This document shows positions 1,489-58,861 of a DNA stretch of 63,836 nt, piece by piece (within the stretch, counting starts at the first letter, position 1; the number at the start of each line of letters is the position of its first letter). The notes below the pieces were generated by a model. That model was not told the origin of the DNA. It saw only the letters and a program-made list of their open reading frames with translations, and did not search any database. The DNA comes from a virus (lineage: Duplodnaviria > Caudoviricetes). The stretch covers positions 1 to 63,836 of IMG/VR virus record IMGVR_UViG_3300032285_000409; one strand, given 5' to 3'. The position numbers were made by a program, and so were the translations under genes.

Positions 1489-1505
1489 AAACACGGAGAA
1501 AGCAA

Positions 1506-3065
1506 ATGGAAATCTTAGAAGACAAAGCTCTGGTCTTCCGCACTCGCAACCCTCACAAATACAAGATCATCCCCAAGCACAAGATCGTTGAGCGCGAGGA
1601 TGGCGGCTACGACGTAGCAGTGTTCTGGGGTCTTGATGAGGTTCGTGTTCTTAAGAACATGGGTGTGCGTGATGTGCCTTCGCCCATCGTTCGGCGCTAC
1701 GACTGGCCGGGCAAGTTCAAACCGATGGCGCACCAGACCGAGACCGCTGCGTTCCTGACGCTCCACAAGAAAGCGTTTGTCTTCAGCGAACCGGGCACTG
1801 GCAAGACACTAGCGGCACTGTGGGCTGCGGACTACCTGATGAAGCGTGGCGAGGTTCGTCGCTGTTTGATTCTGTGTCCGCTGTCCATCATGCAGAGCGC
1901 GTGGCTTAACGACTTGAACAACAGCATCATCCATCGCTCGGCCATTGTCGCGCACCACGCGCAATCTAGTCGCCGCATTGAGATGATTCAGCAAGACTAC
2001 GAGTTCGTCATCTGCAACTACGACGGGCTTAACTTAATCTCACAAGAGATCGTCAATGACGGGCGCTTTGATCTCATCATTGTGGACGAGGCCAACGCTT
2101 ACAAGACCATCACAACCAAACGATGGAAGACACTCAAGTCCATCATGCGCCCTGATACGCTGCTGTGGATGATGACAGGTACGCCTGCATCGCAGTCGCC
2201 TGCTGATGCGTACGGTCTAGCCAAACTGGTGAACCCAGACAACGTGCCCAAGTTCTTCACATCATGGCGCGATCAGGTGATGAACAAGATCACCATGTTC
2301 AAGTGGGCACCCAAGCCCAACGCCCCCGAGATTGTGCACAACGCTTTGCAACCGGCCATCCGGTTCACCAAAGACCAATGCCTTGACCTGCCGCCTGTCA
2401 TCACCATGACGCGCGAGGTGCCACTCACACCGCAGCAGAAGAAGTACTACGACCTGCTCAAAGATCGCATGCTGGTGCAAGCAGCAGGTGAGACCATCAC
2501 AGCGGTCAACGCCGCTGCTGGCGTGAGCAAGCTGCTACAGATTTCCTGTGGCGCTGCTTACACCGATGACAAAGAGGTGGTTGAGTTCGATGCGGCTCCC
2601 AGATTGGGAGTTTTGGAGGAGATTCTGGAGGAGACCACACGCAAAGTCATCATCTTTGCCATGTTCCGCAGCACCATTGTGGGCATCCACAGTCACCTGC
2701 TCAAGAAAGGCATAGCCGCAGAGATCATCGATGGTAGTGTGACAGCCAGCAAACGAGGCGACATCATCCACCGCTTCCAGAACCAACCTGACCCCCGCGT
2801 GTTGGTCATGCAGCCGCAAGCTACCGCCCACGGGATTACCCTAACTGCTGCTGACACGGTGGTGTTCTATGGCCCGCTGATGAGCGTGGAGCAGTACGTG
2901 CAGTGTATCGCCCGCGCTGACCGCAAAGGTCAGAATTCTGACAAGGTTACGGTGGTGCACATTCAGGGTTCGCCCATCGAGAAGCGAATGTTTAAGGCCC
3001 TCGAGAACAAAGTGAGTGATAACTCACTTCTGACCGAGATGTTTGAAACAGAAATAAAGTCGTGA
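1506..3065 (+). CDS. SNF2-family helicase
   Basis: EPGTGKT Walker A, IIVDEA, MTGTP, HGITLT, Q..AR..RKGQ motifs. Confidence 0.92.
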   Translation: MEILEDKALVFRTRNPHKYKIIPKHKIVEREDGGYDVAVFWGLDEVRVLKNMGVRDVPSPIVRRYDWPGKFKPMAHQTETAAFLTLHKKAFVFSEPGTGKTLAALWAADYLMKRGEVRRCLILCPLSIMQSAWLNDLNNSIIHRSAIVAHHAQSSRRIEMIQQDYEFVICNYDGLNLISQEIVNDGRFDLIIVDEANAYKTITTKRWKTLKSIMRPDTLLWMMTGTPASQSPADAYGLAKLVNPDNVPKFFTSWRDQVMNKITMFKWAPKPNAPEIVHNALQPAIRFTKDQCLDLPPVITMTREVPLTPQQKKYYDLLKDRMLVQAAGETITAVNAAAGVSKLLQISCGAAYTDDKEVVEFDAAPRLGVLEEILEETTRKVIIFAMFRSTIVGIHSHLLKKGIAAEIIDGSVTASKRGDIIHRFQNQPDPRVLVMQPQATAHGITLTAADTVVFYGPLMSVEQYVQCIARADRKGQNSDKVTVVHIQGSPIEKRMFKALENKVSDNSLLTEMFETEIKS

Positions 3066-8176: not shown

Positions 8177-8330
8177 AAGGGGGCAGGGGTTCTTTGTCCC
8201 CTGCCTCGACACGGACGCCATCAAGTTGGCTGGACTGAATGCGGCGCTGACGCACCGCATCCTTAATGCCAAGGCTTACGCTGGCATTAAGGACGGTTTG
8301 ATTGGCGTGTGGTTCTTCAGGCCCGGTTAG
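8133..8330 (+). CDS. Hypothetical protein
   Basis: YPW...GQGFFVP...GVWFFR; last gene of the + arm. Confidence 0.6.
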   Translation: MKKLLTVNYPWSKTERGQGFFVPCLDTDAIKLAGLNAALTHRILNAKAYAGIKDGLIGVWFFRPG

Positions 8331-30053: not shown

Positions 30054-33000
30054 TTACGTGTCGATTGGCGTCCAGCCCGGGTTTTGGGATATGTCGATCA
30101 CCGTCCAGCCTGACGACTGGGCATTATTGATATTTTGCCAGTTAGCGGTCTGGCTGTCATCTATCACGTTCCAAAGATATGCGCCAATCACGGAATCCAA
30201 AGCCGTGGCGCTATCCACAAAAGCGGCATTGAGGACGCCGTTAGATGCGGGACTGTCGATGGCTGTTATGGCTTCCTGAACCTGTGGTTTGAACACCGAG
30301 GGGGCAACCAACGTCACGTCCGTCACCGTACCAGTCTCAGCAATCTGGCCCAAGAAGTTCATCAAGGAGCTGGTCAAATCGCTGGCTGTAGCGGTTTCAG
30401 ATACACGGCCCACAAAGATAACGACTGACCGGGTTGTATCTGTGGCTGTAGCGGTTTCGGCGATTGCGCCAGTGGTTGTACGGTTAGCAGCGGGGCTGTC
30501 CGTTGCCGTGGCTGTCTCTGCCACACTGGGCTTGAATATGTTGTTGGCTGTGCTAGTCGCATCAGTAGCCGTGGCTGTCTCCGCAAGGCTTGGATTAAAC
30601 GTATTGTTGGCTGTGCTGGTTGTGTCTGTGCCTGTGGCTGTTTCTGCAAGGCTTGGATTAAACGTATTGTTGGCTGTCAGTGCTGCGTCTGTAGCTGTGG
30701 CAGTTTCTGACAGAGAAGAAGTTAAGTACAATCCACCCAATATGATGTCCGTGCTTGTAGCAGTTTCTGCCACGCTTGGGTTGGCTGTGTATTGTGCAGA
30801 CTGAGCGTCAGTTGCTGTAGCGGTTTCGGATACGCTTGGGTTAGCCGTGTATTGGGATGAAATGGCGTCCGTACCCGTGGCTGTCTCAGCCGTAGCAGGG
30901 TTGAACGTGTTGTTGGCTGTCAGCGTGGTATCCGTTGCTGTGGCCGTTTCAAAAATAATTCCGGCAAACGCAAACTGACTGGCTGTTGTATCTGTAGCTG
31001 TGGCCGTCTCAGCAATGTTGCTGCTGATTAGGAATGTCGTCGATACCGTGTCCGTGCCCGTAGCTGTTTCTGCCACTTGGGCCAGCAAAGTTAAAACGGA
31101 AGAAAGCGCATCAGTTGCCGTTGCGGTTTCGGACAGGCTGGAGTTAAAAGTGCCAGTAGTAGAAACGCTGTCTGTGGCTGTAGATGTCTCAGCGATGGTT
31201 GACAAGAACGCTTGGATCGCAGCAAACGCATCGGACGCTGTGGCTGTTTCAGACAGGCTGGAGTTGTAAGTTGTTCCACCCGGTGTGTAGATGATGAAGA
31301 TCATGCCCTGACCACCAGCACCGCCAGCATTTACGCCTGTAGTTGCACTATTTCCACCGCCACTGCCACCCGCACCATAAGCCGTGCTTGCTCTACCCGG
31401 CTGGTTTCCACCGGGGCCACCAGCACCGCCGCCACCGCCTACAGTGCTGGAAATTTCAATGCTTGAACCGCCAACAGCGCCCAAGTTACCGTTAGCACCA
31501 CCACCACCTCCACCACCGTTTGTACCCGCAGTGCCTGCTGCATTGGTACCGCCAATACCACCACCTGTGCCGCCAAAATTGTTACCGCCAGTACCGCCTA
31601 CGTTAGATGCGCCTGCCGTACCAGCGGAACCCCCGCCATTACCCCCGCCACCGCCGCCAGCAGATAATGAAATATCGGAAGTACCAGCGCCACCTGCCCC
31701 ACCTGCACCGTTGGGGCCAGCAGAACCTCCGCCACCACCGCCGCCACCGCCAGTACTACTAACGGTAGTGATACCCCCTGCGCCACCGTTACCACCTGAA
31801 TAAGTGCCAGTGCCCCCTGTTCCACCTACAGAAGTTGGGGTTGCAGTTGTAGAACCGCCACCACCACCTGTTGCAGTTTGAGCATTAAATGTGGTTGTGC
31901 CGCCACTGCCACCCGTACCACCGGCCGAAGTCCCTGCTGTACCCGCAGCACCTACGGAGTAAGCAATAGCGCCTGAAAGCGTCTGATTGGTCAGTACGCG
32001 ATAACCACCACCACCACCTCCGCCACCCGCAGCTTTATTGGTAGCACTTGTGTAGCGTGATCCACCACCGCCACCGCCACCACCAATCAAGTGAATGGTG
32101 TTATTTGAACTATTCCAATCAGCAGGAACTGTCCAGCTTGAGCCTGACAAAAGTAAGTAAGCTACGACCGTGGAAGCAGCAAACAAGATGCCGCTGTTGT
32201 TACCTGAATTAGTAGAGTTTGCCCCTGCGTACCATTTGTAAGGCGCTGTACCGTTTGTAGCAAATGGGGTGAATGACAGGTCTTGGACATTGAGGTAGTC
32301 AGTGGATACTGTGCCACCGCCTGTGAGGGCAATCGTTGCTTGTGTACCTGCTGTAGAGCTATTAAGCGTCAACAAATTTCCCGCTATACCTGCCGCTGTA
32401 AATGCTGCCACTGTGGTTGTCGTAGATGCAGGAAACGTAATTGTTGTTGCACTAGTAGCTGTGTAAGTTGCGGTAATGTTGTTAAAAGTATTTGCACCAG
32501 TAATGGTCAAAGCACCAGCTCCGCCATTGTTAAGCGTACAGTTATAAGTAGCACCATTACCATTAAATGTTTTAGCAGATGCACTTGTAAGGCTAATTGT
32601 TCCAGTACCTGTTCCAGCTGTGCTAGTAAATCCCGTTGAATTACCATTAAATGGATTTACACTAGCAGAACTAAGAAGCAAAGTTCCACCATTAAATGTT
32701 AAATTTTTTGTTCCTGCTGTTATTGAAAAAGCAGCAATTAAACCAGATAATGTTAATGTTTTACCATTTAGATCAAGCGTTCCATTTCTAAGTGAAAATG
32801 CGCCTGCGCCCGAAGCGGTTGATAATAACGCATCTTGTAAAGTAACCGTACCTGATGGCGAGTTAATTACTAAACCTTGAGTAAATGTAATACCAGCGCT
32901 TGTGATTTGCTGCGTAATACGTCCACTAAAAAACATTTGACCCGTACCACTCAACGTAGTGCCAGTTCCGTTAATCCAGTTACCGTAAATTGCAGGTGTA

Positions 33001-36000
33001 CTCGAACTTGTAGCCAGCGTCATTGTGTTGCTGGTACGGGCAGACATATCTATCGTGCCAATGTTGTAGTTGGCGTTGACGGTGACGGTTGCTGCTGAAT
33101 TAAGTCCAGTTGATTGAAAAATTGCCGTATCTTGGGCAAGAGGAAAATTGTTGATGGCTGGTGTACCACCGCCCGTTGTTGCCCAGCCAATTGCACCGCC
33201 CCAGTTACCACCAGCAGCAAGATTCCAATATTTGTTTACACCAGCGCCAAACGTAATACCGCTGTTGCCTTTGCAGTCACCAAGGCGAGTGCCTGATGCT
33301 GGAGCCGCTGCACCTGCAATCGTGATGTCTTGGAAGTCAGTATCTGTAAAAGATACCGCAGCGCAAGTTAATGTGCGCGCTGTGCCTACTGTGTCTGACT
33401 GCGCAAACGTGCGCATTGTTGCATCTGTACCAGCGGCAAGCGTAAAAGTTCCGTTAATGGTTTGATTTGCGCCAAATGCAACAGGTTTTACACCGGCTGC
33501 CGTTGTGTTATTAATAGTTAAATTATTAAACGTGTTAACACCAGTAATTGTTGTTGTGCTAATTGAAGTTGCTGTACTGGTTACGTTGTAATATGTTTGT
33601 CCACCGCCAGCAAATGTTGCAGGAGTAACAGATAAATTTATTTGAGATGTGCCAGCATTTAAGGTTCCGCTGGTATAACTAAAAGGTGTAGTAGTACTTA
33701 AAGTTATTGTTGATGCATTAAGTGTTAATGTGCCGCCACTAACCGCAATTCTCCCTGATGAAACAGCATAATTACTTGCAGAAGTGCTAAATGTTCCACT
33801 AGTTACTGTAATAGAATTTGTAGAATTATTTATTGCACTTCCAAGCGTCCAACCGCCTCCTGCACCATTAAAATTTATATTGCAATTTAAGGTTGTGCCA
33901 TTGGTTGTAATGGTTTTTCCTGTGGCTGTAGCATTAAATGTTATGCCACTGCCCGCTGCATTCCACACCGTAGCTGCCACCAATGACATCGACCCGCTAA
34001 TGGCAAACGATGGCACAGTACCATTACCAAACGTCACCGTACCTGCTGACACGGTAATATCGTTACAAGTCAAAGCACCCGTACAGGTGACTGTGTAGGT
34101 AGTTGCTGAATCAAAGAATACGTTGTCTTGCGGAATTGGTACCGATGCGCCACCACTGCCACCTGATGTAGCAGACCAGTTAGTTGTAGAGGTTGTGTTC
34201 CATGTACCTGCACCGCCAACCCAGTAACGGCTTCCAAAAGTAAAATTCCAACCAGTGTTGTTACCACCGTTGGTTGATGCTATTGCGTTCCACGTTGCTC
34301 CGCCTGTGGCAGTGGAGTAGCTAATGGATGTGTAATATGCAGCAACAGTTCCAGAAGCTTTGGACAGCGTGAAGGCCGATGTGGTCGTGCTGCCCAGCGT
34401 TAACGTACCTGTAGAAGTTCCCGTTGCTGAAAAGTTGCTTACTGTGGTGGTTGTGCCAGCGGTGAAGGTAATAGCCGTTGCACCAGTCGTTGTATACGTC
34501 GCGGTAATGTCGTTGAACGTATTTGCGCCAGAGATGGTCAAAGCTCCCGCGCCACCTTGGTTCAAGGTGCAGTTATAGGTAGAGCCACCGCCAACAAATG
34601 TTTTGGCGCCTACAGAAGTAAGTGTAATTATACCAGTTCCCGTGCCTGCCGTGGTTGTAAATCCGGTTGGCGCAGCATTGTTAAAAGGTGTTGTAGCCGA
34701 GGCAGCAATTGATAATGTTCCGCCATTAAATGTTATATTTTTTGTTCCAGCGGCAGTAATAAAACCACCATTTGCATTAGATATTGTGTAGGTTTTACCA
34801 TTTAAGTTTAATGTGCCGTTAGTAAGTGTAGTTGTTGGGCCTAAAGTGCCATCATTTGTAAAGTTATCTTGAAATGTTATTGTGCCGCCGGGGGAGTTAA
34901 AGATAACATTAGTAAATGTTTGCCCAGATGTGGTAATTGATTGACTTCCACGACCTGAGAATGTAGTGGTTCCATTTGAAAATGTAACACCTGTACCTAA
35001 AATCCAGTCCCCTGATATATTCATTGCTGCGCTACCAGCACTCAATGTCATTGTGTTGGTTGTGCGGGCAGATGTATCAAGAGTACCAACGTAATAACTG
35101 GAGTTAACAGTAACAGTGGCTCCTGAATTTAATCCGGTAGCTTGAACAATAGCTGTGTCTTGTGCGAGAGGGAAATTGGTTGTTGCAGGAGTTCCACCGC
35201 TTGATGCCGCCCAAGCCACATCACTCCAGTTGCCGCCAGCAGCAAGGTTCCAATAAACAGTTTTAGCTGCGGGGAACGTAATACCACTATTACCTTTACC
35301 ATCTCCAAGGCGTGTACCTGTAAATGGTGCTGCTGCGCCTGCGCCTGTGATGTCTTGAAAATCAACGTCAACTAAAGATACAGCAGCGCAAGTTAATGTG
35401 CGGGTTGTACCAATTGCATCTGTTTTAATTACCATTCGGTATCCAGCATTTGCATTGCCAGCAAATGTAAGGGTGCCGTTAACGGTTTGGTTAGCACTTA
35501 AAGTTAAGCTACCAATACCAATAGTTGCAGTTCTTGGGTTAACTGTTAAATTGTTAAATGTATTTGCACCCGTAATTGCTGGGCCTGTAGCTACCGTGCT
35601 TGTATTTCCAGTAAAAGATACGTTGTAATAAGTTTGACCACCACCAGCAAAAGTTACTGCGTTAGTAGCAGAAAGATTTATTTGCGAAGTTCCAGCGGTA
35701 ATAGTTCCGCTGGTATATGTAAATGGTGTGGCGTTTGTTAATGAGACTGTTGAACCATTTAGCGTTAATGTTCCACCTTGAACAGTAATTTGAGTGCCTG
35801 TTAGCGCATAATTGCTTGCGGATGTGCTAAATGTGCCAGCAGTACAAGTAATAGAAGAACTTGTTGTTAGCGCACTACCAAGTGTCCATGCACCACCCGA
35901 ACCATTGAAAGTTAATGCGCCTGATAATGTAGTGCCATTAGTGGCAATTGTTTTGCCTGTGGTTGTGGCATTAAAAGTAATTGCACCAGTGGCACTCCAT

Positions 36001-36845
36001 ACTGTGCCAGCCAGCAAAGACATAGAGCCGCTGATAGCAAATGTGGGTGTGGTACCTGTAGAAAATGTTACCGTACCTGCTGACACAGTAATGTCTCGGC
36101 AAACCAAAGCACCCGTACAGGTGACTGTGTAGGTGGTTGCTGAATCAAAAATTACGCTGTTTGATGCTGTGGGTACAGGTTGTCCACCCGTACCGCCTGA
36201 TGCTGTTGCCCAGTTAGTTGTTGTGGTTGTGTCCCATGTACCTGAACCACCAACCCAATAGCGATCACTTGGAATAAGCGAAATAGAAACTGCCGCCAAT
36301 GTGCTAGACGCTGAAACCGTAGCAGTTCTAGCAGTTGTAGTGCCCGCAGCAGCTTGTGCCTCATCAACAACCAATATGCCATTTACTGTGCCAGTAGAAG
36401 CTGAACTAACTCGGCTGGTTGTTGAAACTGGAGCAACCCATGTCGCTGACGTTGGAGTACCACAATAAAAACTTATAACGTATTCATTCGTGACAGTTGT
36501 TGTGCCTGTCAATGTGGCTACGGTTAATCCTGTTGCCGTGTTGATGGTTGTGGCAATGTCAACGCCAGTAGAACCACGATAAGCAACCATGACAGCGCAA
36601 GTGCTTGCGCCAGCTACAGTTAGTGCAACAGAAGCTTCAGATGCCGTTGCTGTCTTTGTATATACGTTTAAGTTGTTGCCGCCAGCCTGACTTCTTTGAC
36701 GAGTCCATCCAGATGGTGTTGTTGGTGTCGCAGAGCCTGTAGTAGTGATAATCAAAATATCACCAGCCGCATAACCTGTAGGTACAGGCACAGTCGGGTT
36801 AGTACCCGTGACTACAGCACCAGCAGCAACAAACGAAATTGGCAT
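30054..36845 (-). CDS. Giant Thr/Gly-rich tail fibre/adhesin (2263 aa)
   Basis: Duplicated beta-helix-like RYWVGG modules, glycine-rich domain, C-terminal AETATATD repeats. Confidence 0.8.
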   Translation of the reverse strand: MPISFVAAGAVVTGTNPTVPVPTGYAAGDILIITTTGSATPTTPSGWTRQRSQAGGNNLNVYTKTATASEASVALTVAGASTCAVMVAYRGSTGVDIATTINTATGLTVATLTGTTTVTNEYVISFYCGTPTSATWVAPVSTTSRVSSASTGTVNGILVVDEAQAAAGTTTARTATVSASSTLAAVSISLIPSDRYWVGGSGTWDTTTTTNWATASGGTGGQPVPTASNSVIFDSATTYTVTCTGALVCRDITVSAGTVTFSTGTTPTFAISGSMSLLAGTVWSATGAITFNATTTGKTIATNGTTLSGALTFNGSGGAWTLGSALTTSSSITCTAGTFSTSASNYALTGTQITVQGGTLTLNGSTVSLTNATPFTYTSGTITAGTSQINLSATNAVTFAGGGQTYYNVSFTGNTSTVATGPAITGANTFNNLTVNPRTATIGIGSLTLSANQTVNGTLTFAGNANAGYRMVIKTDAIGTTRTLTCAAVSLVDVDFQDITGAGAAAPFTGTRLGDGKGNSGITFPAAKTVYWNLAAGGNWSDVAWAASSGGTPATTNFPLAQDTAIVQATGLNSGATVTVNSSYYVGTLDTSARTTNTMTLSAGSAAMNISGDWILGTGVTFSNGTTTFSGRGSQSITTSGQTFTNVIFNSPGGTITFQDNFTNDGTLGPTTTLTNGTLNLNGKTYTISNANGGFITAAGTKNITFNGGTLSIAASATTPFNNAAPTGFTTTAGTGTGIITLTSVGAKTFVGGGSTYNCTLNQGGAGALTISGANTFNDITATYTTTGATAITFTAGTTTTVSNFSATGTSTGTLTLGSTTTSAFTLSKASGTVAAYYTSISYSTATGGATWNAIASTNGGNNTGWNFTFGSRYWVGGAGTWNTTSTTNWSATSGGSGGASVPIPQDNVFFDSATTYTVTCTGALTCNDITVSAGTVTFGNGTVPSFAISGSMSLVAATVWNAAGSGITFNATATGKTITTNGTTLNCNINFNGAGGGWTLGSAINNSTNSITVTSGTFSTSASNYAVSSGRIAVSGGTLTLNASTITLSTTTPFSYTSGTLNAGTSQINLSVTPATFAGGGQTYYNVTSTATSISTTTITGVNTFNNLTINNTTAAGVKPVAFGANQTINGTFTLAAGTDATMRTFAQSDTVGTARTLTCAAVSFTDTDFQDITIAGAAAPASGTRLGDCKGNSGITFGAGVNKYWNLAAGGNWGGAIGWATTGGGTPAINNFPLAQDTAIFQSTGLNSAATVTVNANYNIGTIDMSARTSNTMTLATSSSTPAIYGNWINGTGTTLSGTGQMFFSGRITQQITSAGITFTQGLVINSPSGTVTLQDALLSTASGAGAFSLRNGTLDLNGKTLTLSGLIAAFSITAGTKNLTFNGGTLLLSSASVNPFNGNSTGFTSTAGTGTGTISLTSASAKTFNGNGATYNCTLNNGGAGALTITGANTFNNITATYTATSATTITFPASTTTTVAAFTAAGIAGNLLTLNSSTAGTQATIALTGGGTVSTDYLNVQDLSFTPFATNGTAPYKWYAGANSTNSGNNSGILFAASTVVAYLLLSGSSWTVPADWNSSNNTIHLIGGGGGGGGSRYTSATNKAAGGGGGGGGYRVLTNQTLSGAIAYSVGAAGTAGTSAGGTGGSGGTTTFNAQTATGGGGGSTTATPTSVGGTGGTGTYSGGNGGAGGITTVSSTGGGGGGGGGSAGPNGAGGAGGAGTSDISLSAGGGGGGNGGGSAGTAGASNVGGTGGNNFGGTGGGIGGTNAAGTAGTNGGGGGGGANGNLGAVGGSSIEISSTVGGGGGAGGPGGNQPGRASTAYGAGGSGGGNSATTGVNAGGAGGQGMIFIIYTPGGTTYNSSLSETATASDAFAAIQAFLSTIAETSTATDSVSTTGTFNSSLSETATATDALSSVLTLLAQVAETATGTDTVSTTFLISSNIAETATATDTTASQFAFAGIIFETATATDTTLTANNTFNPATAETATGTDAISSQYTANPSVSETATATDAQSAQYTANPSVAETATSTDIILGGLYLTSSLSETATATDAALTANNTFNPSLAETATGTDTTSTANNTFNPSLAETATATDATSTANNIFKPSVAETATATDSPAANRTTTGAIAETATATDTTRSVVIFVGRVSETATASDLTSSLMNFLGQIAETGTVTDVTLVAPSVFKPQVQEAITAIDSPASNGVLNAAFVDSATALDSVIGAYLWNVIDDSQTANWQNINNAQSSGWTVIDISQNPGWTPIDT
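30180..31270 (-). repeat. Coding tandem repeats, 20-21 aa unit (S[LV]AETATATD)
   Basis: More than 15 imperfect copies visible in the translation. Confidence 0.85.
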
Positions 36846-49410: not shown

Positions 49411-50946
49411 TTAGTAGTACGCCACACGGCGCTGCTTGAAGAATTTCGGTTCGTCTGGCTCGTCAGAGTCCAGAGCGATGAACCCACCTTGCCGGAAGCG
49501 CAGCAGGGCTTGAGATGTCGTATCCACGAAGTCGTCGTTCTCGCCGTTGGGAAAGGACGCCACCTCCTCGATCACCTCCCGCGCCCAGCGGGTGTCCGGT
49601 GCCCACACTCTACCCGAAGCGAACAAGTCCGCCACCGCGTTGAGTCGCACAATCTTATCGTTTCCCCGGCTAGGCGTAAACTCCTGCACCGGTATGCCCA
49701 TCGCCCGTAGCTCTTGGATCAGTGGTGCACCAGCAGCCTTCTTCTCCACAATGAACGCATCCGGCTCCCACTCCTTGTAGTGCTTGAGCGCCGTGGTCTT
49801 GAGTTCTGGGAACGCCATCCTGTCCTTGAACGCGTCTAGCAGAATGACTTGTGCCTGATCGCGCTCTTCCTCGTTATAGAACACACCCCACGTTGTGCAC
49901 GCGGAATAGTCGGCTGTCGTCTTGGCTTCAAACGCCGTGTCCCATGACTGGATGATGTACTCGCAGGTGGGCGGCTTGTCTGACGGCCATGTTCTCCACC
50001 TACTACGCGCAATGATCGCTGCGTTGTTGGACACCGGGTTCTGCATGTACTGGGCGTTCCAGTACTGGGGATCCATCGCGGCCTTCTTCTGCTTGAGCGA
50101 CTCCAGCGGCCACTGCTCTGGCCAGAGCGATTTCTCGTTTGGCTCGTCTTCATTCAGGATGGCGGGTAGCTCCACCAACTCCCACGGATCAGACTCTGGG
50201 TTCTTGGTCTGGTAGTCCAGTAAGCGCCCCGTCAGGTCGAGCTTAGACCAGCGCGTCATGATGATAATGATCGCGCCTCCCGGCATCAGACGTTGTAACG
50301 GCCCTGTTTGGAACCACGACCAAGCGGTGTCGAAAGCGAGTCGAGAGTTGGCCTTGACGTCCTGCTCCGAGTGAGGGTCATCAATAACGAACAAATCAGC
50401 GCCACGACCAGCAAGAGCACCACCGACACCAGCAGCGTAATATTGACCGCCAGCGCTTGTAGACCACTTACCAGCAGCTTTTTGATCGTCTGCCACCTGA
50501 GTTCTGGGAAAAAGCTCATGGTATTCCTCACCGTCAATCAGATTTCGCACCCGGCGACCGAAGTCTTCCGACAAACCTGCGGTGTGCGTACCCATAATGA
50601 TCTTCTTCTCAGGGAAATTCCCCAAGAAAAACGCCGGGAACAAGTAAGAGGAAAACTCAGACTTACCCATACGTGGCGCAATGTTGATAATCACCCGCTT
50701 TTTCTTGCCGGAAATCACATCACTGAAGATTCTGGCGAGTTTCTTGTGGTGCGGCCCCACCTTGAACCCGGGATACACGGATTTTGCGAATGCAAGCATA
50801 TCTGTGCGGGCGCTGTCTTTGATTTTGTGTTCTTCCGCCTTGTCGAGCATCTCCAAATACTCGAGTTTCTCCAAGGGCGACATCTTCCCAATGTTCTGGA
50901 ACAGCGCGGAGGCTTGCTCAGGCGTCAGTGGTGGATTCGTCGTCAT
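49411..50946 (-). CDS. terL: Terminase large subunit
   Basis: APRMGKS Walker A, IDDP Walker B, MTRW, SWDTA, DDFVD nuclease motifs. Confidence 0.95.
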   Translation of the reverse strand: MTTNPPLTPEQASALFQNIGKMSPLEKLEYLEMLDKAEEHKIKDSARTDMLAFAKSVYPGFKVGPHHKKLARIFSDVISGKKKRVIINIAPRMGKSEFSSYLFPAFFLGNFPEKKIIMGTHTAGLSEDFGRRVRNLIDGEEYHELFPRTQVADDQKAAGKWSTSAGGQYYAAGVGGALAGRGADLFVIDDPHSEQDVKANSRLAFDTAWSWFQTGPLQRLMPGGAIIIIMTRWSKLDLTGRLLDYQTKNPESDPWELVELPAILNEDEPNEKSLWPEQWPLESLKQKKAAMDPQYWNAQYMQNPVSNNAAIIARSRWRTWPSDKPPTCEYIIQSWDTAFEAKTTADYSACTTWGVFYNEEERDQAQVILLDAFKDRMAFPELKTTALKHYKEWEPDAFIVEKKAAGAPLIQELRAMGIPVQEFTPSRGNDKIVRLNAVADLFASGRVWAPDTRWAREVIEEVASFPNGENDDFVDTTSQALLRFRQGGFIALDSDEPDEPKFFKQRRVAYY

Positions 50947-51514
50947 CTGGTTTTGCTTCTACGTCCAACACATCGGCGTCGCTCACGTTCATGAACTTGG
51001 CCAGCTTCTCTTTGAGCTTCTTGTCGATCTCGTCTGCCGTCATTTCAGTCTTCTTGACCTCAATTTTCTCGGTGAACAGCCCGACTTCCGTGACTTTGCC
51101 CAGCAAACCAAGCGCCTTCAGGCGAATATTGGCGTTGGGGTGTTGCGTTTCTTCCACAAGTTTGGCCACAGTGTACCCGCGCAGTTCTTTGGCCTGCTGT
51201 ACAAACTCCCAGTCATAGGCGGTGAGCATGCCGACCAGATGTCGGACGGCCTCGGGGGTCTTGATCTCAGCTAACTGGTGGTGGGTGTGGGCGTCGGGGG
51301 CTGCGGTGACGACACTATTAAATGCTTGGCGTGCAGCCTCTGTCTCTAAACGGGTGGTTACTTGGTCAACATCAACAGCGCCAAGGGCTTTGAGCCAGTC
51401 GGCGGTTTGTAATTTGGCATCAATGACTTCGACCGCACTGACTTTATCCACAGGCACGGCAACGCCGGGGTGAGCGCTCACTTCGGGTTCAAAGTCTAAC
51501 AAGTGTTCCAGCAT
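50918..51514 (-). CDS. Putative terminase small subunit
   Basis: Directly upstream of terL; RLKAL.LLGK...GLF.EK.EV motif. Confidence 0.65.
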   Translation of the reverse strand: MLEHLLDFEPEVSAHPGVAVPVDKVSAVEVIDAKLQTADWLKALGAVDVDQVTTRLETEAARQAFNSVVTAAPDAHTHHQLAEIKTPEAVRHLVGMLTAYDWEFVQQAKELRGYTVAKLVEETQHPNANIRLKALGLLGKVTEVGLFTEKIEVKKTEMTADEIDKKLKEKLAKFMNVSDADVLDVEAKPDDDESTTDA

Positions 51515-51559
51515 TCCACGTCCTGACAGTTGCGTGCGTTTGCCCCCGCACGGGTGGGG

Positions 51560-51588
51560 TTGTGAAATTCTTATGCGTAATGTAAACT
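51560..51588 (+). promoter_or_regulatory. Sigma70-like promoter for the small RNA
   Basis: TTGTGA-N17-TAAACT. Confidence 0.6.
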
Positions 51589-51594
51589 AAAACT

Positions 51595-51680
51595 GAGTGG
51601 GTGCGCAAGCATTTGCTTTCTCCTCGGTTGGGTTACTCCTCCGTTCAACCCCGGCTGCGTATGCGGACGGGGTTTTTTTT
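51595..51680 (+). ncRNA. Candidate anti-RBS small regulatory RNA
   Basis: Bracketed by promoter and terminator; 51610-51624 is the exact reverse complement of AGGAGAAAGCAAATG at 54173 and 54328. Confidence 0.6.
51649..51680 (+). terminator. Intrinsic terminator
   Basis: CCCCG...CGGGG stem followed by T8. Confidence 0.8.
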
Positions 51681-51684
51681 CGCC

Positions 51685-51700
51685 TGTCAACCGTTAGACA
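51685..51700. promoter_or_regulatory. Operator-like 16-mer TGTCAACCGTTAGACA
   Basis: Reverse-orientation copy of the motif at 3099 and 58643. Confidence 0.55.
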
Positions 51701-51982
51701 AAGGTATTTTTGGAATTTTTTAAAAAATTTTGGGGTGGGTATAGGTAGTTTTACGTAGTCTTTGCTGGGGTTTTGGGGCTGGTTTGTATAAGGTTTTACA
51801 AAATACTGGGTGCGGGTGGGGAATAGTGTTTCGGGTCGGTACCGGCTTCGCTACATAAAGGGGTTGGTGGGGGTACGGTGGGGTTATCAGATGGGGCTTT
51901 TTGACCTTCCCCAGACCCCCGTTATGTTTAACTGAAGGTGTTGATGCACTCTCGCACAACATAACCAACTGGAGAAACTTCC

Positions 51983-52411
51983 ATGACTATTCGTACTATC
52001 GCTAAATCAATCGGTGCACAAGAACGTAACACCGAAGCCGCTATGTCCACACATATCAAGGCATACACCAAAGCCAAGCCCGAGGCGCAGGCTGAGATGC
52101 GCCGCGACTATCAGGTGGGCTACATCGCAGGCAGGGGCAAGGTGAGCATGGCTGAGTCAGAGAGAATTCTCTCTAACGGCAAAGGTGCGGCTTGTGAGAG
52201 CGAGGCGCACATCAAGCTCATCGACCAAGCCACCGCCTCATTCAACTACTGGTTCAAGTCCACGCCCAAGCAGGCAACGACGACGAGCCACGCACGCATC
52301 AGCAAGCAACATCGTGAGGCGGCTACCAACTTCCTTGCCGAGTTTGAGGGCGAGACACTGCAAGAGCAAATCAACGCCGCTATCGCAGTCTTGCGTGCAA
52401 TGACCAAGTGA
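51983..52411 (+). CDS. Hypothetical early protein
   Basis: First ORF of the + arm; RBS GGAG. Confidence 0.7.
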   Translation: MTIRTIAKSIGAQERNTEAAMSTHIKAYTKAKPEAQAEMRRDYQVGYIAGRGKVSMAESERILSNGKGAACESEAHIKLIDQATASFNYWFKSTPKQATTTSHARISKQHREAATNFLAEFEGETLQEQINAAIAVLRAMTK

Positions 52412-52548
52412 GTTTTTTCAACCAAGCGGTACAGCGTGGGCTGGCCGCTGTTCCCTTTCGTGTCCAACGAGAATCGTAATGCGAACACAAACGCAAATCA
52501 TTATCAATCCGTGGGACACACTGTCCCACCAAACTTAGGAGAAATCAA

Positions 52549-52764
52549 ATGTGCTTCAACACTCAACCCACCGTTAAAGAAGTCGGCATCTTGTCCCTGC
52601 GTGGTCAAGACTATCACTGCCAGCGAATCACCTATGGCACACGCCATCACATCCATGTGTTCCGCAAGGGCGAACTGCACAAGCACGGCTTGGTGTTCAC
52701 CACGCAGGCAGAGTACCAGCACTGGCTCAAAGGCTTAGGCAAACAACTCGAACTGTTCAATTGA
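52549..52764 (+). CDS. Hypothetical early protein
   Basis: RBS AGGAGAAATCAA-ATG; ends in QLELF. Confidence 0.65.
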   Translation: MCFNTQPTVKEVGILSLRGQDYHCQRITYGTRHHIHVFRKGELHKHGLVFTTQAEYQHWLKGLGKQLELFN

Positions 52765-54093: not shown

Positions 54094-54184
54094 AGAGAAA
54101 TCTCTCTGACGTACTGGCATGGCTACGCCGCTCACCATGCCGGTACTACCTCAACGAGCGGCACCTGAAACTAGGAGAAAGCAA

Positions 54185-54343
54185 ATGAACGAAGAACTTA
54201 TTGACGCTGTTATCGAGCAGATGATGCTCGACATTCAGGCAGACGACTGGACTGCCATCGCTGAGTTATTGAACCGCACACACGAGGACGTGCTCGTAGC
54301 GTTCCTGTCTGACTGCGGTATGCCCGAAGGAGAAAGCAAATGA
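54185..54343 (+). CDS. Small acidic early protein
   Basis: RBS AGGAGAAAGCAA-ATG. Confidence 0.65.
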   Translation: MNEELIDAVIEQMMLDIQADDWTAIAELLNRTHEDVLVAFLSDCGMPEGESK

Positions 54344-54710: not shown

Positions 54711-54784
54711 ATCAAGAGAGAAACCTCTCTGACGCCCAGTCGGGCGGCGTTCAAGCCCGACACTAGCAACTTAGGAGAAACCAA

Positions 54785-56188
54785 ATGAGTAACTATGACA
54801 ACGACGTTATGCGCGAAATCATGCGCAATACCATCCGCATCCTCAAACATGGCGTTGAGGTGCGCGACGAGCAAACACGGAGGTGGACATACACCTGCCG
54901 ACCACGCACTTGGTTCAGCAACCTTGCCTATCGCTTCGACTTCCATAAGGCTGTATGGGACGCAGTCATTATGACCCGTCCTCGTGACTGGCAACAGCTT
55001 GTGCTTGAGTATCCACACAAGGCAGAGACTGACCCCAACCGCATCGCTTACACACGTGATGAGCGTGCAGGCGAGGCCGATAAGCAGACGGTGACTACCA
55101 TCGGTAAATACTTGATGCGCCACTTCGACCTGCCTGACCACGAGATACGCGACATCGTTGCACGCTACACCAGCAAGGGCGAGATGTATTTCGTACACAC
55201 AGTCGACGAGATGGTGCACGTGGTCAACAACGGCCCGCACTCATGTATGAAGTGGAGCAGCCGTGGCGGTGTCAACTGCGACGACGGTATCAGGCGGCAT
55301 CCGTATGCGGTGTATGCCCCCAAGTATGGCTGGCACATGGCTGTTCGCAAGGACGGTGATGAGATTGTCGGTCGTGCTCTGTGTATCAGCAACGACGACG
55401 GCAAGTACTGGGTGCGCTCGTTCAAGAAGGGCGAGAGTTACAGCTACACCGACGAGATGCTCGAGGCATGGCTCAAGTCTCAAGACTACAAGCACGAGAG
55501 TGGGTATATCGAGGGGCAGAAGATTGCCAAGATTCCCGCTGAGTGTGGCTACCTTGCACCGTACCTCGACGGTGATGCTCAGTGCGTGAGCGATGGCGGT
55601 GACCACCTGTTCATCGAGGAGCGTGGTGATTACAGCTTCAACGAGACGCAAGGCTATGTCAGTGATGGCAACGACAAGGTCGAGTGCGAAGACTGTGGTG
55701 ACATGGTCGACGAAGACGAGTACTCCTACGTGGGTGCTTACGAAGACCGATGCGTGTGTCACAACTGCATGGAGAACAGCTACACAAGCGTCATATCCCG
55801 CAACGGGCGGGAGCGTTACATCCATGACGATGACGTTGTTTACGTCCAGTCTCAAGATGCGCACTACGACGTCAACTACCTGTCCACCAACAGCATCGTC
55901 GAGCTTGACAACGGCGACTATGAGCACATCGACAATGCCGTGTGTGTTGACGATACGTGGTATCACGTCGAGGATGAGCGCGTTGTCTGCGACCACCAAG
56001 GTGACTACCAGCTACGTGAGAACTGTTCACAGCTACACGATGGCGAGTGGGCGTTAGATGACGAGTGCTGGTACTGCGAGGGGTCGCAGGAGTACTACCT
56101 GTACGAGGACGAAGACCCTGTGTACGTTGATGGTGATATGTACCACCCCGACCATGTGCCAACAAGCGAAGAGAACCAAGGAGAATAA
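54785..56188 (+). CDS. Uncharacterised protein with SCM/GRAL/PYLD domain and acidic Cys-rich repeats
   Basis: HSCM, GRAL, APYLD motifs; CEDCG...CHNC. Confidence 0.7.
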   Translation: MSNYDNDVMREIMRNTIRILKHGVEVRDEQTRRWTYTCRPRTWFSNLAYRFDFHKAVWDAVIMTRPRDWQQLVLEYPHKAETDPNRIAYTRDERAGEADKQTVTTIGKYLMRHFDLPDHEIRDIVARYTSKGEMYFVHTVDEMVHVVNNGPHSCMKWSSRGGVNCDDGIRRHPYAVYAPKYGWHMAVRKDGDEIVGRALCISNDDGKYWVRSFKKGESYSYTDEMLEAWLKSQDYKHESGYIEGQKIAKIPAECGYLAPYLDGDAQCVSDGGDHLFIEERGDYSFNETQGYVSDGNDKVECEDCGDMVDEDEYSYVGAYEDRCVCHNCMENSYTSVISRNGRERYIHDDDVVYVQSQDAHYDVNYLSTNSIVELDNGDYEHIDNAVCVDDTWYHVEDERVVCDHQGDYQLRENCSQLHDGEWALDDECWYCEGSQEYYLYEDEDPVYVDGDMYHPDHVPTSEENQGE

Positions 56189-58411: not shown

Positions 58412-58573
58412 ATGGACATGGGACAAATCAAACGCTGGTTCATGGAGAACGTCGACGATGACTTTGATGCCGTTGAGGAGGAGATGTCACGCGTTGCCGA
58501 GGAGATGGTCGATGCCGAGTTCGACCGCATAGCAGAGGAGAAAGCAGATGCTAAATCTAAGAGAGAAAGTTGA
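58412..58573 (+). CDS. Small highly acidic protein (53 aa, not in ORF track)
   Basis: MDMGQIKRWFMENVDDDFDAVEEEMSRVAEEMVDAEFDRIAEEKADAKSKRES; RBS present. Confidence 0.55.
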   Translation: MDMGQIKRWFMENVDDDFDAVEEEMSRVAEEMVDAEFDRIAEEKADAKSKRES

Positions 58574-58681: not shown

Positions 58682-58702
58682 AGCAACTCTAGGAGAAAGT
58701 AA

Positions 58703-58861
58703 ATGAACACAAATGCACTGCGCCACGTGCGCCAGCTATGGAACGTAGCCTACGTTCCTCGTGAAATCAACCGTGCCAACCAACTTAAGTGGGTGCGCTC
58801 CGTGCGCCTGCTCGGGGACAAGTGGCTACTTGCACAGTACGTTCAAAAACTGGAGCACTGA
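58703..58861 (+). CDS. Hypothetical protein (52 aa, not in ORF track)
   Basis: MNTNALRHVRQLW...KWVRSVRLLGDKWLLA; RBS AGGAGAAAGTAA-ATG. Confidence 0.65.
   Translation: MNTNALRHVRQLWNVAYVPREINRANQLKWVRSVRLLGDKWLLAQYVQKLEH

What the first reader, a model, noticed from the sequence alone, without database searches (positions are those of the whole stretch)
51560..51680. Candidate phage small RNA complementary to a shared RBS+start-codon 'address' on more than ten early genes
Seen: a TTGTGA-N17-TAAACT promoter (51560-51588) and an intrinsic terminator (51649-51680) bracket about 86 nt on the + strand that have no evident coding role. The core, CATTTGCTTTCTCCTCGGTTG (51610-51630), is the reverse complement of CAACCGAGGAGAAAGCAAATG. 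Translation starts matching it: 54173 and 54328 (15/15, AGGAGAAAGCAAATG), 1495 (helicase, 14 nt), 58535 (16 nt with one G-U), 58691 (AGGAGAAAGTAAATG), 57392 (AGGAGAAAGAAAATG, DUF932), 54773 (AGGAGAAACCAAATG), 52537 (AGGAGAAATCAAATG), 3124, 58401, 267 and 51971. Many are preceded by (C)AAC[TC], which would pair with the RNA's GGTTG. The - strand structural-gene starts I read (e.g. AGGAGTAAAT, AGGAGTCC, AGGAGCAC) lack the AAAGCAA extension. Established: trans sRNAs that cover the SD and AUG block translation. Inference: one phage RNA silences the early/replication regulon through a standardised RBS, acting as an early-to-late switch or maintaining a dormant state.
Basis: partly seen in the sequence, partly recalled or inferred. 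Interest (0 to 1): 0.9.

Follow-up and report, generated by a model that had tools for sequence, protein, structure and literature searches.

The report
Phage copy of a host anti-RBS small RNA
This freshwater phage and its many uncultured relatives carry a small RNA gene that looks like a diverged copy of a regulatory RNA of their likely bacterial hosts, with an exposed stretch that can cover ribosome-binding sites, best of all those of the phage's own early genes.

Summary
Window 51560-51680 (+) carries a conserved promoter, an RNA of about 86 nt and an intrinsic terminator, between the terS-like late gene (-) and the early genes (+). All 76 related IMG/VR loci that kept at least 200 nt upstream of terS carry it (58 distinct RNA sequences). 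The layout is a 5' stem-loop, an invariant unpaired UUCUCCU, a second hairpin that covaries, then the terminator. The 13-codon minus-strand ORF is not conserved: 34 of 58 sequences lack a start codon.

The RNA is not an isolated invention. Rfam's best weak match is RF02278, the Betaproteobacteria toxic small RNA family (NcS27/S17), whose unpaired CU-rich sites pair with ribosome-binding sites. A model built from phage sequences alone hits 86 of 121 genomes of the family of a Limnohabitans-labelled MAG. Of the 12 best bacterial hits, 8 pass RF02278's own threshold.

The phage seed differs from the host seed (UU(U)CUCCU against UGUCUCCU). It fits GGAGAA, which marks 69% of GGAG-type early starts in the window, 18% of late ones and 6% in a host-family sample.

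That the RNA silences the early regulon is plausible but unproven. Seed/RBS covariation within the phages is weak, a structure-aware test did not beat shuffles (5 of 30), and I found no RNA data.

The parts
51560..51565 (+). -35 element TTGTGA of the small-RNA promoter
   Evidence: TTG lies 16-19 nt upstream of the -10 hexamer in 58 of 58 distinct relatives' sequences; sequence read.
51583..51588 (+). -10 element TAAACT
   Evidence: The -10 hexamer is TACACT in 27, TATACT in 26 and TAAACT in 5 of the 58 distinct sequences. Bacterial RF02278 copies have the same TTGCAx-N17-TAyACT layout.
51595..51680 (+). Predicted small RNA of about 86 nt. The start is inferred as 7 nt after the -10 element; the end is in the U run.
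   Evidence: Fold. Covariance-model hit at 51609-51678: 33.9 bits with R1 and 54.7 bits with R2. No transcript data exist.
51595..51618 (+). 5' stem-loop SL1. Its 3' arm GCAUUUGCUU carries the near-invariant UUGCUU.
   Evidence: Predicted in all 58 sequences. The 6 nt before the core have a mean unpaired probability of 0.13. Insertions in relatives sit in the SL1 loop. Covariation of SL1 was not tested.
51618..51624 (+). Invariant UUCUCCU core; 51619-51624 is predicted unpaired. Complement of AGGAGAA.
   Evidence: Present in 58 of 58 distinct sequences. Mean unpaired probability is 0.84 and exceeds 0.5 in 58 of 58.
51625..51643 (+). Second hairpin SL2 (CGGUUGGGUUACUCCUCCG)
   Evidence: All 6 model pairs show compensatory changes among 51 distinct aligned rows, and 89.5% of cells are paired.
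51647..51680 (+). Intrinsic terminator: GC-rich hairpin plus eight U
   Evidence: Fold. In the terminator helix 6 of 8 pairs show compensatory changes and 95.3% of cells are paired.
54173..54187 (+). Candidate target: RBS and start of the 52-aa early ORF; 15 of 15 complementary
54328..54342 (+). Candidate target: RBS and start of the 66-aa early ORF; 15 of 15 complementary
1494..1508 (+). Candidate target: RBS and start of the SNF2-type helicase gene; 14 of 15
58691..58705 (+). Candidate target: RBS and start of the 52-aa early ORF; 14 of 15, and the best structure-aware score
57392..57406 (+). Candidate target: RBS and start of the DUF932 gene; 14 of 15
54773..54787 (+). Candidate target: RBS and start of the 467-aa early ORF; 14 of 15
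52537..52551 (+). Candidate target: RBS and start of the 71-aa early ORF; 14 of 15
58536..58550 (+). Site complementary to the RNA, 14 of 15 (the mismatch would be a G-U pair); it is uncertain that a gene starts here
50918..51514 (-). Context: terS-like first late gene (198 aa), transcribed divergently from the small RNA
   Evidence: It lies upstream of terL (PHROG 38) and portal. It has no family match itself. 407 relatives were found in IMG/VR.
51983..52411 (+). Context: first early gene (142 aa), about 300 nt downstream of the terminator
   Evidence: Its relatives form the largest early protein cluster, present in 29 loci.

Best explanation
Window 51595-51680 (+) is an independently transcribed small RNA of about 86 nt. 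It runs from a sigma-70-type promoter to an intrinsic terminator. It is a diverged, phage-borne relative of the Betaproteobacterial 'toxic small RNA' / double-hairpin family (Rfam RF02278; NcS27/bdhR1 in Burkholderia, S17 in Bordetella) and was probably captured from a Burkholderiales host.

Like that family, it most likely works by base-pairing its unpaired CU-rich stretch with Shine-Dalgarno regions, which keeps ribosomes off the mRNA. In the phage the seed reads UUG-CU(U)-UCUCCU where the host copies read UUG-UCUCCU. It therefore fits AGGAGAA(A)G, the RBS type of the phage's own early genes, so those genes are the most likely targets.

Shown here: the gene's conservation, its structure, its strand, its kinship with RF02278 and the early-gene RBS bias. 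Inferred: transcription, pairing, repression and any timing role.
For: Conservation:
- All 76 related loci with at least 200 nt upstream of terS carry the unit, giving 58 distinct RNA sequences.
- TTG plus a TAnACT hexamer is present in 58 of 58.
- Each of the 57 sources searched holds exactly one covariance-model hit (56 with R1; L052 with R2).

Structure:
- 93.0% of cells are paired, against 68.6% in shuffles and 38-55% when partners are slid.
- 12 of 14 pairs have compensatory changes.
- 146 cells changed on both sides, against 44.8 expected; 0 of 500 shuffles reach this.

Strand: 41 G-U cells against 3 A-C cells, plus the U run.

Seed: UUCUCCU is invariant and unpaired (mean probability 0.84).

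Kinship with RF02278:
- RF02278 is the best Rfam match in the window (18.9 bits) and appears in 5 of 10 relatives (21.7-30.6 bits) at the same place and strand.
- The phage-only model R2 hits 86 of 121 genomes of the MAG's family (best 57.8 bits) against 20 of 141 phylum-wide (best 42.2).
- 8 of the 12 best bacterial hits pass RF02278's 50-bit threshold and 4 score 46.5-49.7.
- The bacterial copies share the promoter type, 5' stem, unpaired CU stretch, hairpin, UUyAG spacer and terminator.

Mechanism of the family (passages read): the CU-rich unpaired regions are the reverse complement of RBSs, 55-80% of predicted interactions fall at starts, and ncS27 overexpression slows growth (PMC5688073). 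S17S pairs at RBSs and directly represses BP2158 in a lacZ translational fusion (PMC11722255).

Early-gene fit:
- GGAGAA follows in 18 of 26 early against 3 of 17 late GGAG-type starts in the window (p=0.0016), and in 114 of 224 against 10 of 62 in relatives.
- In phage early starts GGAGAA outnumbers GGAGAC 19 to 0 of 27 and 127 to 4 of 240. In the host-family sample the counts are 6 and 10 of 93.
- Predicted binding is stronger for early than late starts: duplex medians -17.8 and -14.7, p=0.0014; cofold medians -9.2 and -5.7, p=0.00012.
Against: - No expression data; no RNA run was listed.
- The window and its relatives do not reach RF02278's gathering score.
- Within the phages the seed does not track the RBS. 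Four lineages with the shorter seed still have mainly AGGAGAAA starts, and their own seed ranks 8th of 14. The overall permutation p of 0.024 is not phylogenetically independent.
- The extended 15-nt match needs the 3' arm of SL1, which is predicted to be paired.
- With intramolecular structure counted, 5 of 30 shuffled RNAs reach the observed number of strong early interactions.
- The early/late contrast could reflect stronger or more A-rich translation signals rather than an RNA target.
- The start-site sets are heuristic. The host sample is 240 kb from GC-rich genomes, not from the true host.
- The perfect RBS cassette precedes at least 13 unrelated small-protein clusters. Cassette shuffling could produce that pattern too.
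Confidence: 0.5

Rival explanations
1. Same small RNA, but aimed at the host. The phage carries a mimic of the host's NcS27/S17-type regulator to repress host mRNAs (transport, carbon and amino-acid metabolism) during infection. The match to its own early RBSs is a by-product of any CU-rich anti-SD seed.
For: Cellular family members repress many host genes at their RBSs, and overexpression attenuates growth (passages in PMC5688073, PMC10987360, PMC11722255). The phage seed keeps UCUCCU(C), shared with the 12 host copies. Weak within-phage covariation and the shuffle result fit a generic anti-SD seed.
Against: The phage-specific CU(U) insertion is fixed in 58 of 58 sequences. It moves the fit away from GGAGAC, the type matching the host seed, towards GGAGAA. 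GGAGAA is rare in the host-family sample (6 of 93) and dominant in phage early starts. The host genome is unknown, so no host target could be sought.
Confidence: 0.28
2. The unit acts in cis or at the DNA or transcription level. One option is a strong divergent promoter that competes with a terS promoter sharing the palindromic -10 region. Another is a leader plus terminator that gates read-through into the early region. A third is an antisense RNA to a late leader that starts further upstream.
For: The -10 region is palindromic in relatives (AGTATACT, AGTGTACACT). A TTGCSM-N18-TACAyT arrangement can be read on the terS strand. The unit sits in the divergent control region beside a conserved palindrome and conserved G-rich blocks.
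Against: A purely cis role does not explain an invariant unpaired seed flanked by freely covarying hairpins. It also does not explain kinship with a trans-acting host family whose copies lie at unrelated chromosomal sites. The terS-strand -10 reading is poor. Three relatives (L009, L016, L045) tolerate an insert of several hundred nt between the terminator and the downstream blocks. No antiterminator gene was recognised, though I did not search for one systematically.
Confidence: 0.08
3. The site is simply a minus-strand RBS with a short leader ORF (13 codons in the window) ahead of terS.
For: The window has AGGAGAAAGCAAATG followed by a 13-codon ORF on the minus strand.
Against: 34 of 58 distinct relatives have no ATG, GTG or TTG 4-10 nt after the AGGAG. 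The 24 that do have ORFs of 10-29 codons with dissimilar peptides. G-U pairs and the U run point to the other strand.
Confidence: 0.02

Closest known systems
Rfam RF02278, Betaproteobacteria toxic small RNA / 'double-hairpin' sRNAs (B. cenocepacia ncS03, ncS05, ncS27 = NcS27/bdhR1, ncS62; Bordetella S17)
   Same: - Promoter type, a 5' stem in the long forms, an unpaired CU-rich stretch complementary to RBSs, a hairpin, a UUyAG-like spacer and an intrinsic terminator.
- Best Rfam match in the window, and present in 5 of 10 relatives.
- A phage-only model retrieves true members.
- Size 57-92 nt in Burkholderia (PMC4603805 passage) against 79-141 nt here.
   Different: - Scores are 18.9-30.6 bits, below the 50-bit gathering score.
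- The seed has a 2-3 nt CU(U) insertion (UUGCUU(U)CUCCU against UUGUCUCCUC).
- The hairpin sequence is not the conserved CCACC/GGUGG of the host copies.
- It is encoded by a phage next to terS, one copy per genome.
- Hfq dependence and processing are unknown.
Neisseria NmsR/RcoF sibling sRNAs (Rfam RF02877)
   Same: CU-rich unpaired stretches complementary to RBS regions (PMC5688073 passage). The bacterial relatives of the phage RNA give sub-threshold RF02877 hits of 39-40 bits.
   Different: No RF02877 hit for the phage RNA itself at the E-values listed. The Neisseria RNAs are tandem cellular genes.
Phage RNA repressors that cover an RBS: P1/P7 c4 RNA, P22 sar RNA (recalled, not read here)
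   Same: A short phage RNA that blocks translation initiation by pairing over an RBS.
   Different: Those act on one operon, and sar is a cis-antisense RNA. No Rfam C4 match reached its gathering score in the window. The candidate here has many dispersed trans sites.
T4 RegA and RegB (recalled; the review PMC3014915 was seen only in a search listing)
   Same: Post-transcriptional shut-down of many early mRNAs through their translation-initiation regions or SD sequences.
   Different: Those are proteins (a repressor and a nuclease); here an RNA would do the job.
Phage-encoded trans sRNAs aimed at host genes, e.g. bioRxiv 10.1101/2024.10.31.621285 (title and start of abstract seen)
   Same: A lytic-cycle phage small RNA acting post-transcriptionally.
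   Different: That RNA is reported to act on host replication machinery. I did not see in that listing any kinship with a host global sRNA family.

Membership tests
Rfam RF02278 (Betaproteobacteria toxic small RNA / NcS27 / S17) | Scores at or above the family's curated gathering score (50 bits) | tested here: not met
   Window 18.9 bits. Relatives: L039 30.6, L040 29.8, L059 23.2, L023 22.0, L008 21.7. The other 5 of the 10 relatives searched had no RF02278 hit listed.
Rfam RF02278 (Betaproteobacteria toxic small RNA / NcS27 / S17) | Architecture: unpaired CU-rich stretch complementary to RBSs, then a hairpin, then a Rho-independent terminator; long forms carry a 5' extension | tested here: met
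   The family description comes from passages of PMC5688073 and PMC11722255.
Rfam RF02278 (Betaproteobacteria toxic small RNA / NcS27 / S17) | Reciprocal detection: a profile of the candidate sequences finds accepted members | tested here: met
   R2 was built from 56 phage hits only. It hits 86 of 121 genomes of the MAG's family. Of the 12 best hits, 8 score 56.1-68 bits and 4 score 46.5-49.7 bits against RF02278. The phylum-wide control gives 20 of 141, best 42.2 bits.
Rfam RF02278 (Betaproteobacteria toxic small RNA / NcS27 / S17) | The seed block conserved in cellular members (a 27-nt 5' region reported as 100% conserved in PMC11722255; UUGUCUCCUCCAC in 11 of the 12 host copies read here, UUGUCUCCUCC in all 12) | tested here: not met
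   The phage has UUGCUU(U)CUCCU followed by a lineage-specific hairpin in 58 of 58 sequences. I did not see the paper's figure with the 27 nt.
Rfam RF02278 (Betaproteobacteria toxic small RNA / NcS27 / S17) | Hfq-dependent repression of translation by pairing at RBSs; RNase E processing of the long form | not testable with these tools
   Needs experiments.
Cis-antisense phage RNAs (lambda OOP, P22 sar type; recalled) | An overlapping transcript on the opposite strand that is the target | tested here: inconclusive
   No transcript data. A terS-strand promoter can be read either inside or beyond the unit.
P1/P7 c4-type immunity RNA (Rfam C4) | Match to the Rfam model | tested here: not met
   No Rfam family reached its gathering score in the window. 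C4 is not among the weak hits.
Minus-strand leader peptide | Conserved start codon and reading frame | tested here: not met
   34 of 58 sequences lack a start codon; lengths and peptides differ in the rest.

The most novel reading that the evidence does not exclude
A widespread clade of freshwater phages captured a global anti-RBS small RNA of its Burkholderiales host. It re-tuned the seed by a 2-3 nt insertion to a standardised RBS cassette, AGGAGAA(A)GCAA(ATG), that fronts its interchangeable early genes. One RNA would then throttle the whole early and replication programme, either as a timer or as a link to the host's starvation state. The cellular homologues accumulate on growth arrest, so the link would amount to RNA-controlled hibernation.
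Probability: 0.3. Interest if true: 0.85.

Novelty: new variant of a known kind. Interest (0 to 1): 0.62.

Why it matters
If the RNA is expressed, this is a case of a phage borrowing a host global regulatory RNA, not a protein-coding auxiliary gene, and changing its seed. In searches for the Rfam accession, for the names 'toxic small RNA', 'double-hairpin' and NcS27 together with 'phage', and for anti-SD phage sRNAs, I found no report of a phage-borne member of this family. I also found no phage RNA proposed to address a whole early regulon through a shared RBS.

The finding gives a directly testable model of RNA-based temporal control, or host-state sensing, in an abundant uncultured freshwater phage group. 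It also gives a host clue for that group (Burkholderiales, possibly Limnohabitans). The paired host and phage seeds, with their matching RBS types, form a natural specificity experiment.

Tried and rejected
- The consensus scanner found neither the promoter nor the terminator in 50800-52600; I relied on folding and conservation instead.
- MAFFT plus RNAalifold on 41 full-length RNAs recovered only 3 invariant terminator pairs, because the variable hairpins were misaligned. I replaced it with a covariance model seeded from 3 sequences. That alignment is fitted to the model, so the pair counts lean towards the structure.
- DNA search of the GenBank phage collection with 51400-52100 found no match.
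- The nearest cultured phages by TerL (about 50% identity: DSL-LC04, 023Pt_psg01, HTVC027P) have a different layout upstream of terL and no R2 hit at E up to 10.
- Rfam at gathering thresholds found nothing in the window.
- RNA evidence: no RNA holder listed. Read laying was not used, because only DNA contig runs were offered.
- RF02278 searched in the Limnohabitans-labelled MAG: best hit 16.3 bits, not over the cut-off. The MAG is incomplete at 1.9 Mb, so this says little.
- Seed/RBS covariation within the phages is weak.
- No single orthologous early gene always carries the perfect site. The 40 sites of 418 candidate starts are spread over at least 13 protein clusters.
- The cofold-based test against 30 dinucleotide shuffles of the RNA was not significant (5 of 30). 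The plain duplex test was: 0 of 300 full shuffles, and 3 of 300 shuffles that kept CTCCT.
- A nut-like or Q-like leader reading was considered from memory only. It was not pursued for lack of a testable protein partner.
- The three cultured Limnohabitans phages (76, 39 and 41 kb; PMC12195039, outline and section 3.3 read) do not match this 63.8-kb genome in size. Their sequences were not compared.
- Kimelman et al. 2012, the source of the 'toxic' name, is not in the searchable library and was not read.
- Supplementary files of papers were not opened. The figures and tables with the sRNA alignments of PMC5688073 and PMC11722255 may bear on the seed comparison.
- Only the best 80 of the 407 terS-related IMG/VR stretches were kept by the tool and examined.
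Full report
Setting. The window is a whole 63,836-bp virus record, 53% G+C. Plus-strand genes run 51983 -> 63836 -> 1 -> 8176: many small ORFs, an SNF2-type helicase, a DUF927 protein and a DUF932 protein. Minus-strand genes run 51514 -> 8317: a 198-aa terS-like gene, terL, portal, and two giant ORFs of 2263 and 2894 aa. The finding lies in the divergent gap 51515-51982 between the two blocks.

Check of the observation.
- TTGTGA at 51560-51565, 17 nt, then TAAACT at 51583-51588.
- A GC-rich hairpin at 51649-51672 followed by eight T.
- 51610-51630 is the reverse complement of an RBS plus ATG.

The simple scanner called neither signal. Folding gives the terminator and two upstream hairpins. AGGAGAAAGCAAATG with at most 2 mismatches occurs 9 times against 0.16 expected, and 0 of 100 shuffles reach 9. 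Eight matches are on the + strand at ORF starts. The ninth is the minus-strand copy inside the candidate RNA. AGGAGAAA occurs 11 times on + and once on -. The listed sites are as stated. The proposed extra pairing of GGUUG with upstream AAC(T/C) is not convincing, because GGUUG is one arm of a hairpin whose sequence is not conserved.

A conserved gene.
- The terS-like protein has 407 relatives among 419 candidate stretches in IMG/VR; the tool kept the best 80.
- All 76 loci with at least 200 nt upstream of terS show the same unit on the strand opposite terS. With the window that gives 58 distinct RNA sequences.
- In 58 of 58, a TTG lies 16-19 nt before a TACACT, TATACT or TAAACT hexamer.
- With the start placed 7 nt after the hexamer, the RNA is 79-141 nt long, median 90.
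- A covariance model seeded from three relatives finds one hit in 56 of 57 sources. The rebuilt model finds the missing one, L052, and scores the window at 54.7 bits at 51609-51678. There is no second copy in the window.

Structure and strand. Every sequence folds as:
- a 5' stem-loop, SL1, whose 3' arm is the near-invariant (A/G)UUUGCUU;
- an unpaired core;
- a second hairpin, SL2;
- a short U-rich spacer;
- a terminator hairpin and U run.

The heptamer UUCUCCU is present in 58 of 58. Its mean unpaired probability is 0.84, above 0.5 in all 58, while the six bases before it average 0.13. Extra hairpins in some relatives sit inside the SL1 loop.

On the model-fitted alignment (51 distinct rows, 14 pairs), 93.0% of cells pair, against 68.6% in 500 shuffles and 38-55% when partners are slid. 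Twelve of 14 pairs show compensatory changes. There are 146 cells with changes on both sides against 44.8 expected, and 0 of 500 shuffles reach this. Because the alignment is fitted to the model, these numbers lean towards the structure.

G-U cells outnumber A-C cells 41 to 3, so the structure works better on this strand (93.0% against 87.3%). On the terS strand, 34 of 58 sequences have no start codon 4-10 nt after the AGGAG. The remaining 24 have ORFs of 10-29 codons with unlike peptides. The 13-codon ORF is therefore not a conserved gene.

What it is related to.
- No Rfam family reaches its threshold in the window.
- With permissive settings, the best match at exactly this place and strand is RF02278, the Betaproteobacteria toxic small RNA: 18.9 bits against a gathering score of 50.
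- The same family appears in 5 of 10 relatives searched, at 21.7-30.6 bits.
- A terS relative, with a truncated copy of the RNA beside it, lies on a 1.7-kb contig of a MAG titled uncultured Limnohabitans. This is only a hint of the host.
- The model built from phage sequences alone matches 86 of 121 genomes of that MAG's family at E up to 0.01, best 57.8 bits.
- In a sample of the whole phylum it matches 20 of 141, best 42.2 bits, next 34.7.
- Of the 12 best bacterial hits, 8 score 56.1-68 bits against RF02278 and 4 score 46.5-49.7.
- These bacterial copies have the same plan: TTGCAx-N17-TAyACT, a 5' stem-loop, unpaired ...UUGUCUCCUC, a CCACC/GGUGG hairpin, UUyAG, and a terminator.
- They are not prophages of this phage type. 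The terS search of 185,579 species genomes found only the one MAG contig.

I conclude that the phage RNA is a diverged relative of this host family, most simply a captured gene. It fails the family's own score threshold, so I file it as a variant, not a member.

What the family does. I read passages, not whole papers.
- In B. cenocepacia the four RF02278 'double-hairpin' RNAs are 57-92 nt long with terminators (PMC4603805).
[quoted passage not shown] 55-80% of their predicted interactions fall around gene starts. Overexpressing ncS27 slows growth, and expressing the complement of its CU-rich region does the opposite (PMC5688073).
- A review describes NcS27 as conserved in Burkholderiales and as balancing metabolic shut-down on nutrient deprivation (PMC10987360).
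- Bordetella S17, which the authors relate to RF02278, is Hfq-dependent. RNase E processes it to a short form that begins at the C/U-rich region. It pairs at RBSs and directly represses BP2158 in a lacZ translational fusion (PMC11722255).

Are the early genes the targets? Evidence for:
- The phage seed differs from the host seed by a fixed 2-3 nt insertion. It reads UUG-CU(U)-UCUCCU in 58 of 58 phage sequences against UUG-UCUCCU in 12 of 12 host copies. The complement therefore changes from GGAGAC(A) to GGAGAA(A)G.
- GGAGAA follows 18 of 26 early against 3 of 17 late GGAG-type starts in the window (Fisher p=0.0016). In relatives the counts are 114 of 224 against 10 of 62.
- GGAGAC occurs in 0 of 27 and 4 of 240 early starts.
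- In 240 kb sampled from 12 genomes of the host family, 93 GGAG-type starts gave 6 GGAGAA and 10 GGAGAC.
- Predicted binding is stronger for early than late starts. Duplex medians are -17.8 and -14.7 (p=0.0014), with 12 of 38 against 4 of 43 at -20 or lower. Cofold medians are -9.2 and -5.7 (p=0.00012), with 17 of 38 against 6 of 43 at -10 or lower.

Evidence against:
- Within the phages the seed does not follow the RBS. Lineages with the shorter seed still have mostly AGGAGAAA starts, and their own seed ranks 8th of 14 in four of them. The permutation p of 0.024 rests on related genomes.
- AGGAGAAGCA starts occur only in two related loci.
- The longer 'address' lies in the paired arm of SL1.
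- 5 of 30 shuffled RNAs do as well in the structure-aware test.
- The perfect cassette precedes at least 13 unrelated small-protein clusters (40 of 418 candidate starts). That fits a regulon address, but equally fits shuffling of gene cassettes.
- My start-site sets are heuristic. The host sample is GC-rich (57-71%) and is not the true host.
- No RNA run was listed.

Verdict. The element is very probably a real small-RNA gene, present throughout a large uncultured phage clade. It is a new, phage-borne variant of a known host family of anti-RBS regulators. That it silences the phage's own early genes is the best-fitting target hypothesis. I put it at about even odds together with the general mechanism, and at about 0.3 in the strong 'regulon switch' form. 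Host mRNAs are the main rival. Cis-acting readings and the minus-strand ORF are unlikely.

Literature coverage. Searches for phage sRNAs with anti-SD seeds, and for this family together with 'phage', found no phage-borne member and no regulon-wide anti-RBS phage RNA. The library does not hold all journals.

Noticed in passing
window 51685-51700, and the same place in most related loci: An imperfect palindrome, TGTCAACCGTTAGACA (TGTCTAACGTTAGACA in many relatives), lies directly after the small-RNA terminator. An AT-rich palindromic stretch (about 51707-51735) follows it. Both are conserved across relatives; they may be an operator or origin-like element.
   Followed up: partly
window 51794-51831 and 51860-51885: Two strongly conserved G-rich blocks (TTTTACAAAATACTGGGTGCGGGTGGGGAATAGTGTT and GGGGTTGGTGGGGGTACGGTGGGGTT) lie between the small RNA and the first early gene. 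Between them is a variable stretch. They contain a repeated GGTGGGG-like word. They do not fit sigma-70 spacing, and their function is unknown (iterons, an unusual promoter or another RNA). Seen.
   Followed up: no
L009 about 2932-3004; inserts at the same place in L016 and L045: Three relatives carry an insert of several hundred nt between the small-RNA terminator and the palindrome. In L009, ARAGORN calls an odd tRNA-like gene with a four-base anticodon there, and Rfam gives a weak tRNA-Sec-like hit.
   Followed up: partly
window early region and L001-L080 early flanks: The same RBS cassette, AGGAGAAAGCAA(ATG), fronts many unrelated small early proteins: 40 of 418 candidate starts, spread over at least 13 protein clusters. 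It looks like a portable junction, so module shuffling at a conserved RBS is possible.
   Followed up: partly
window 51570-51590 and relatives: The -10 region of the small-RNA promoter is palindromic in relatives (AGTATACT or AGTGTACACT). On the terS strand it can also be read as TTGCSM-N18-TACAyT. That would make two overlapping divergent promoters.
   Followed up: no
just upstream of the terS ATG in many related loci (for example L036, L033): The conserved inverted repeat GCGCAT...ATGCGC abuts the terS start codon, with the likely SD in its loop. It may be a translational operator for terS. The window has a different GC-rich hairpin there (51520-51560).
   Followed up: no
window 8317-17001 (-) and 30054-36845 (-): Two giant late ORFs of 2894 aa (LPD38 polyvalent-protein domain near the C-terminus) and 2263 aa (no Pfam match).
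   Followed up: no
L084 (1.7-kb contig of a MAG titled uncultured Limnohabitans): A terS relative (83% identity in the best segment), with the small RNA beside it, was binned into a Limnohabitans MAG. The small RNA's bacterial relatives are also enriched in that family. Together these give a host hint for this uncultured phage clade.
   Followed up: partly
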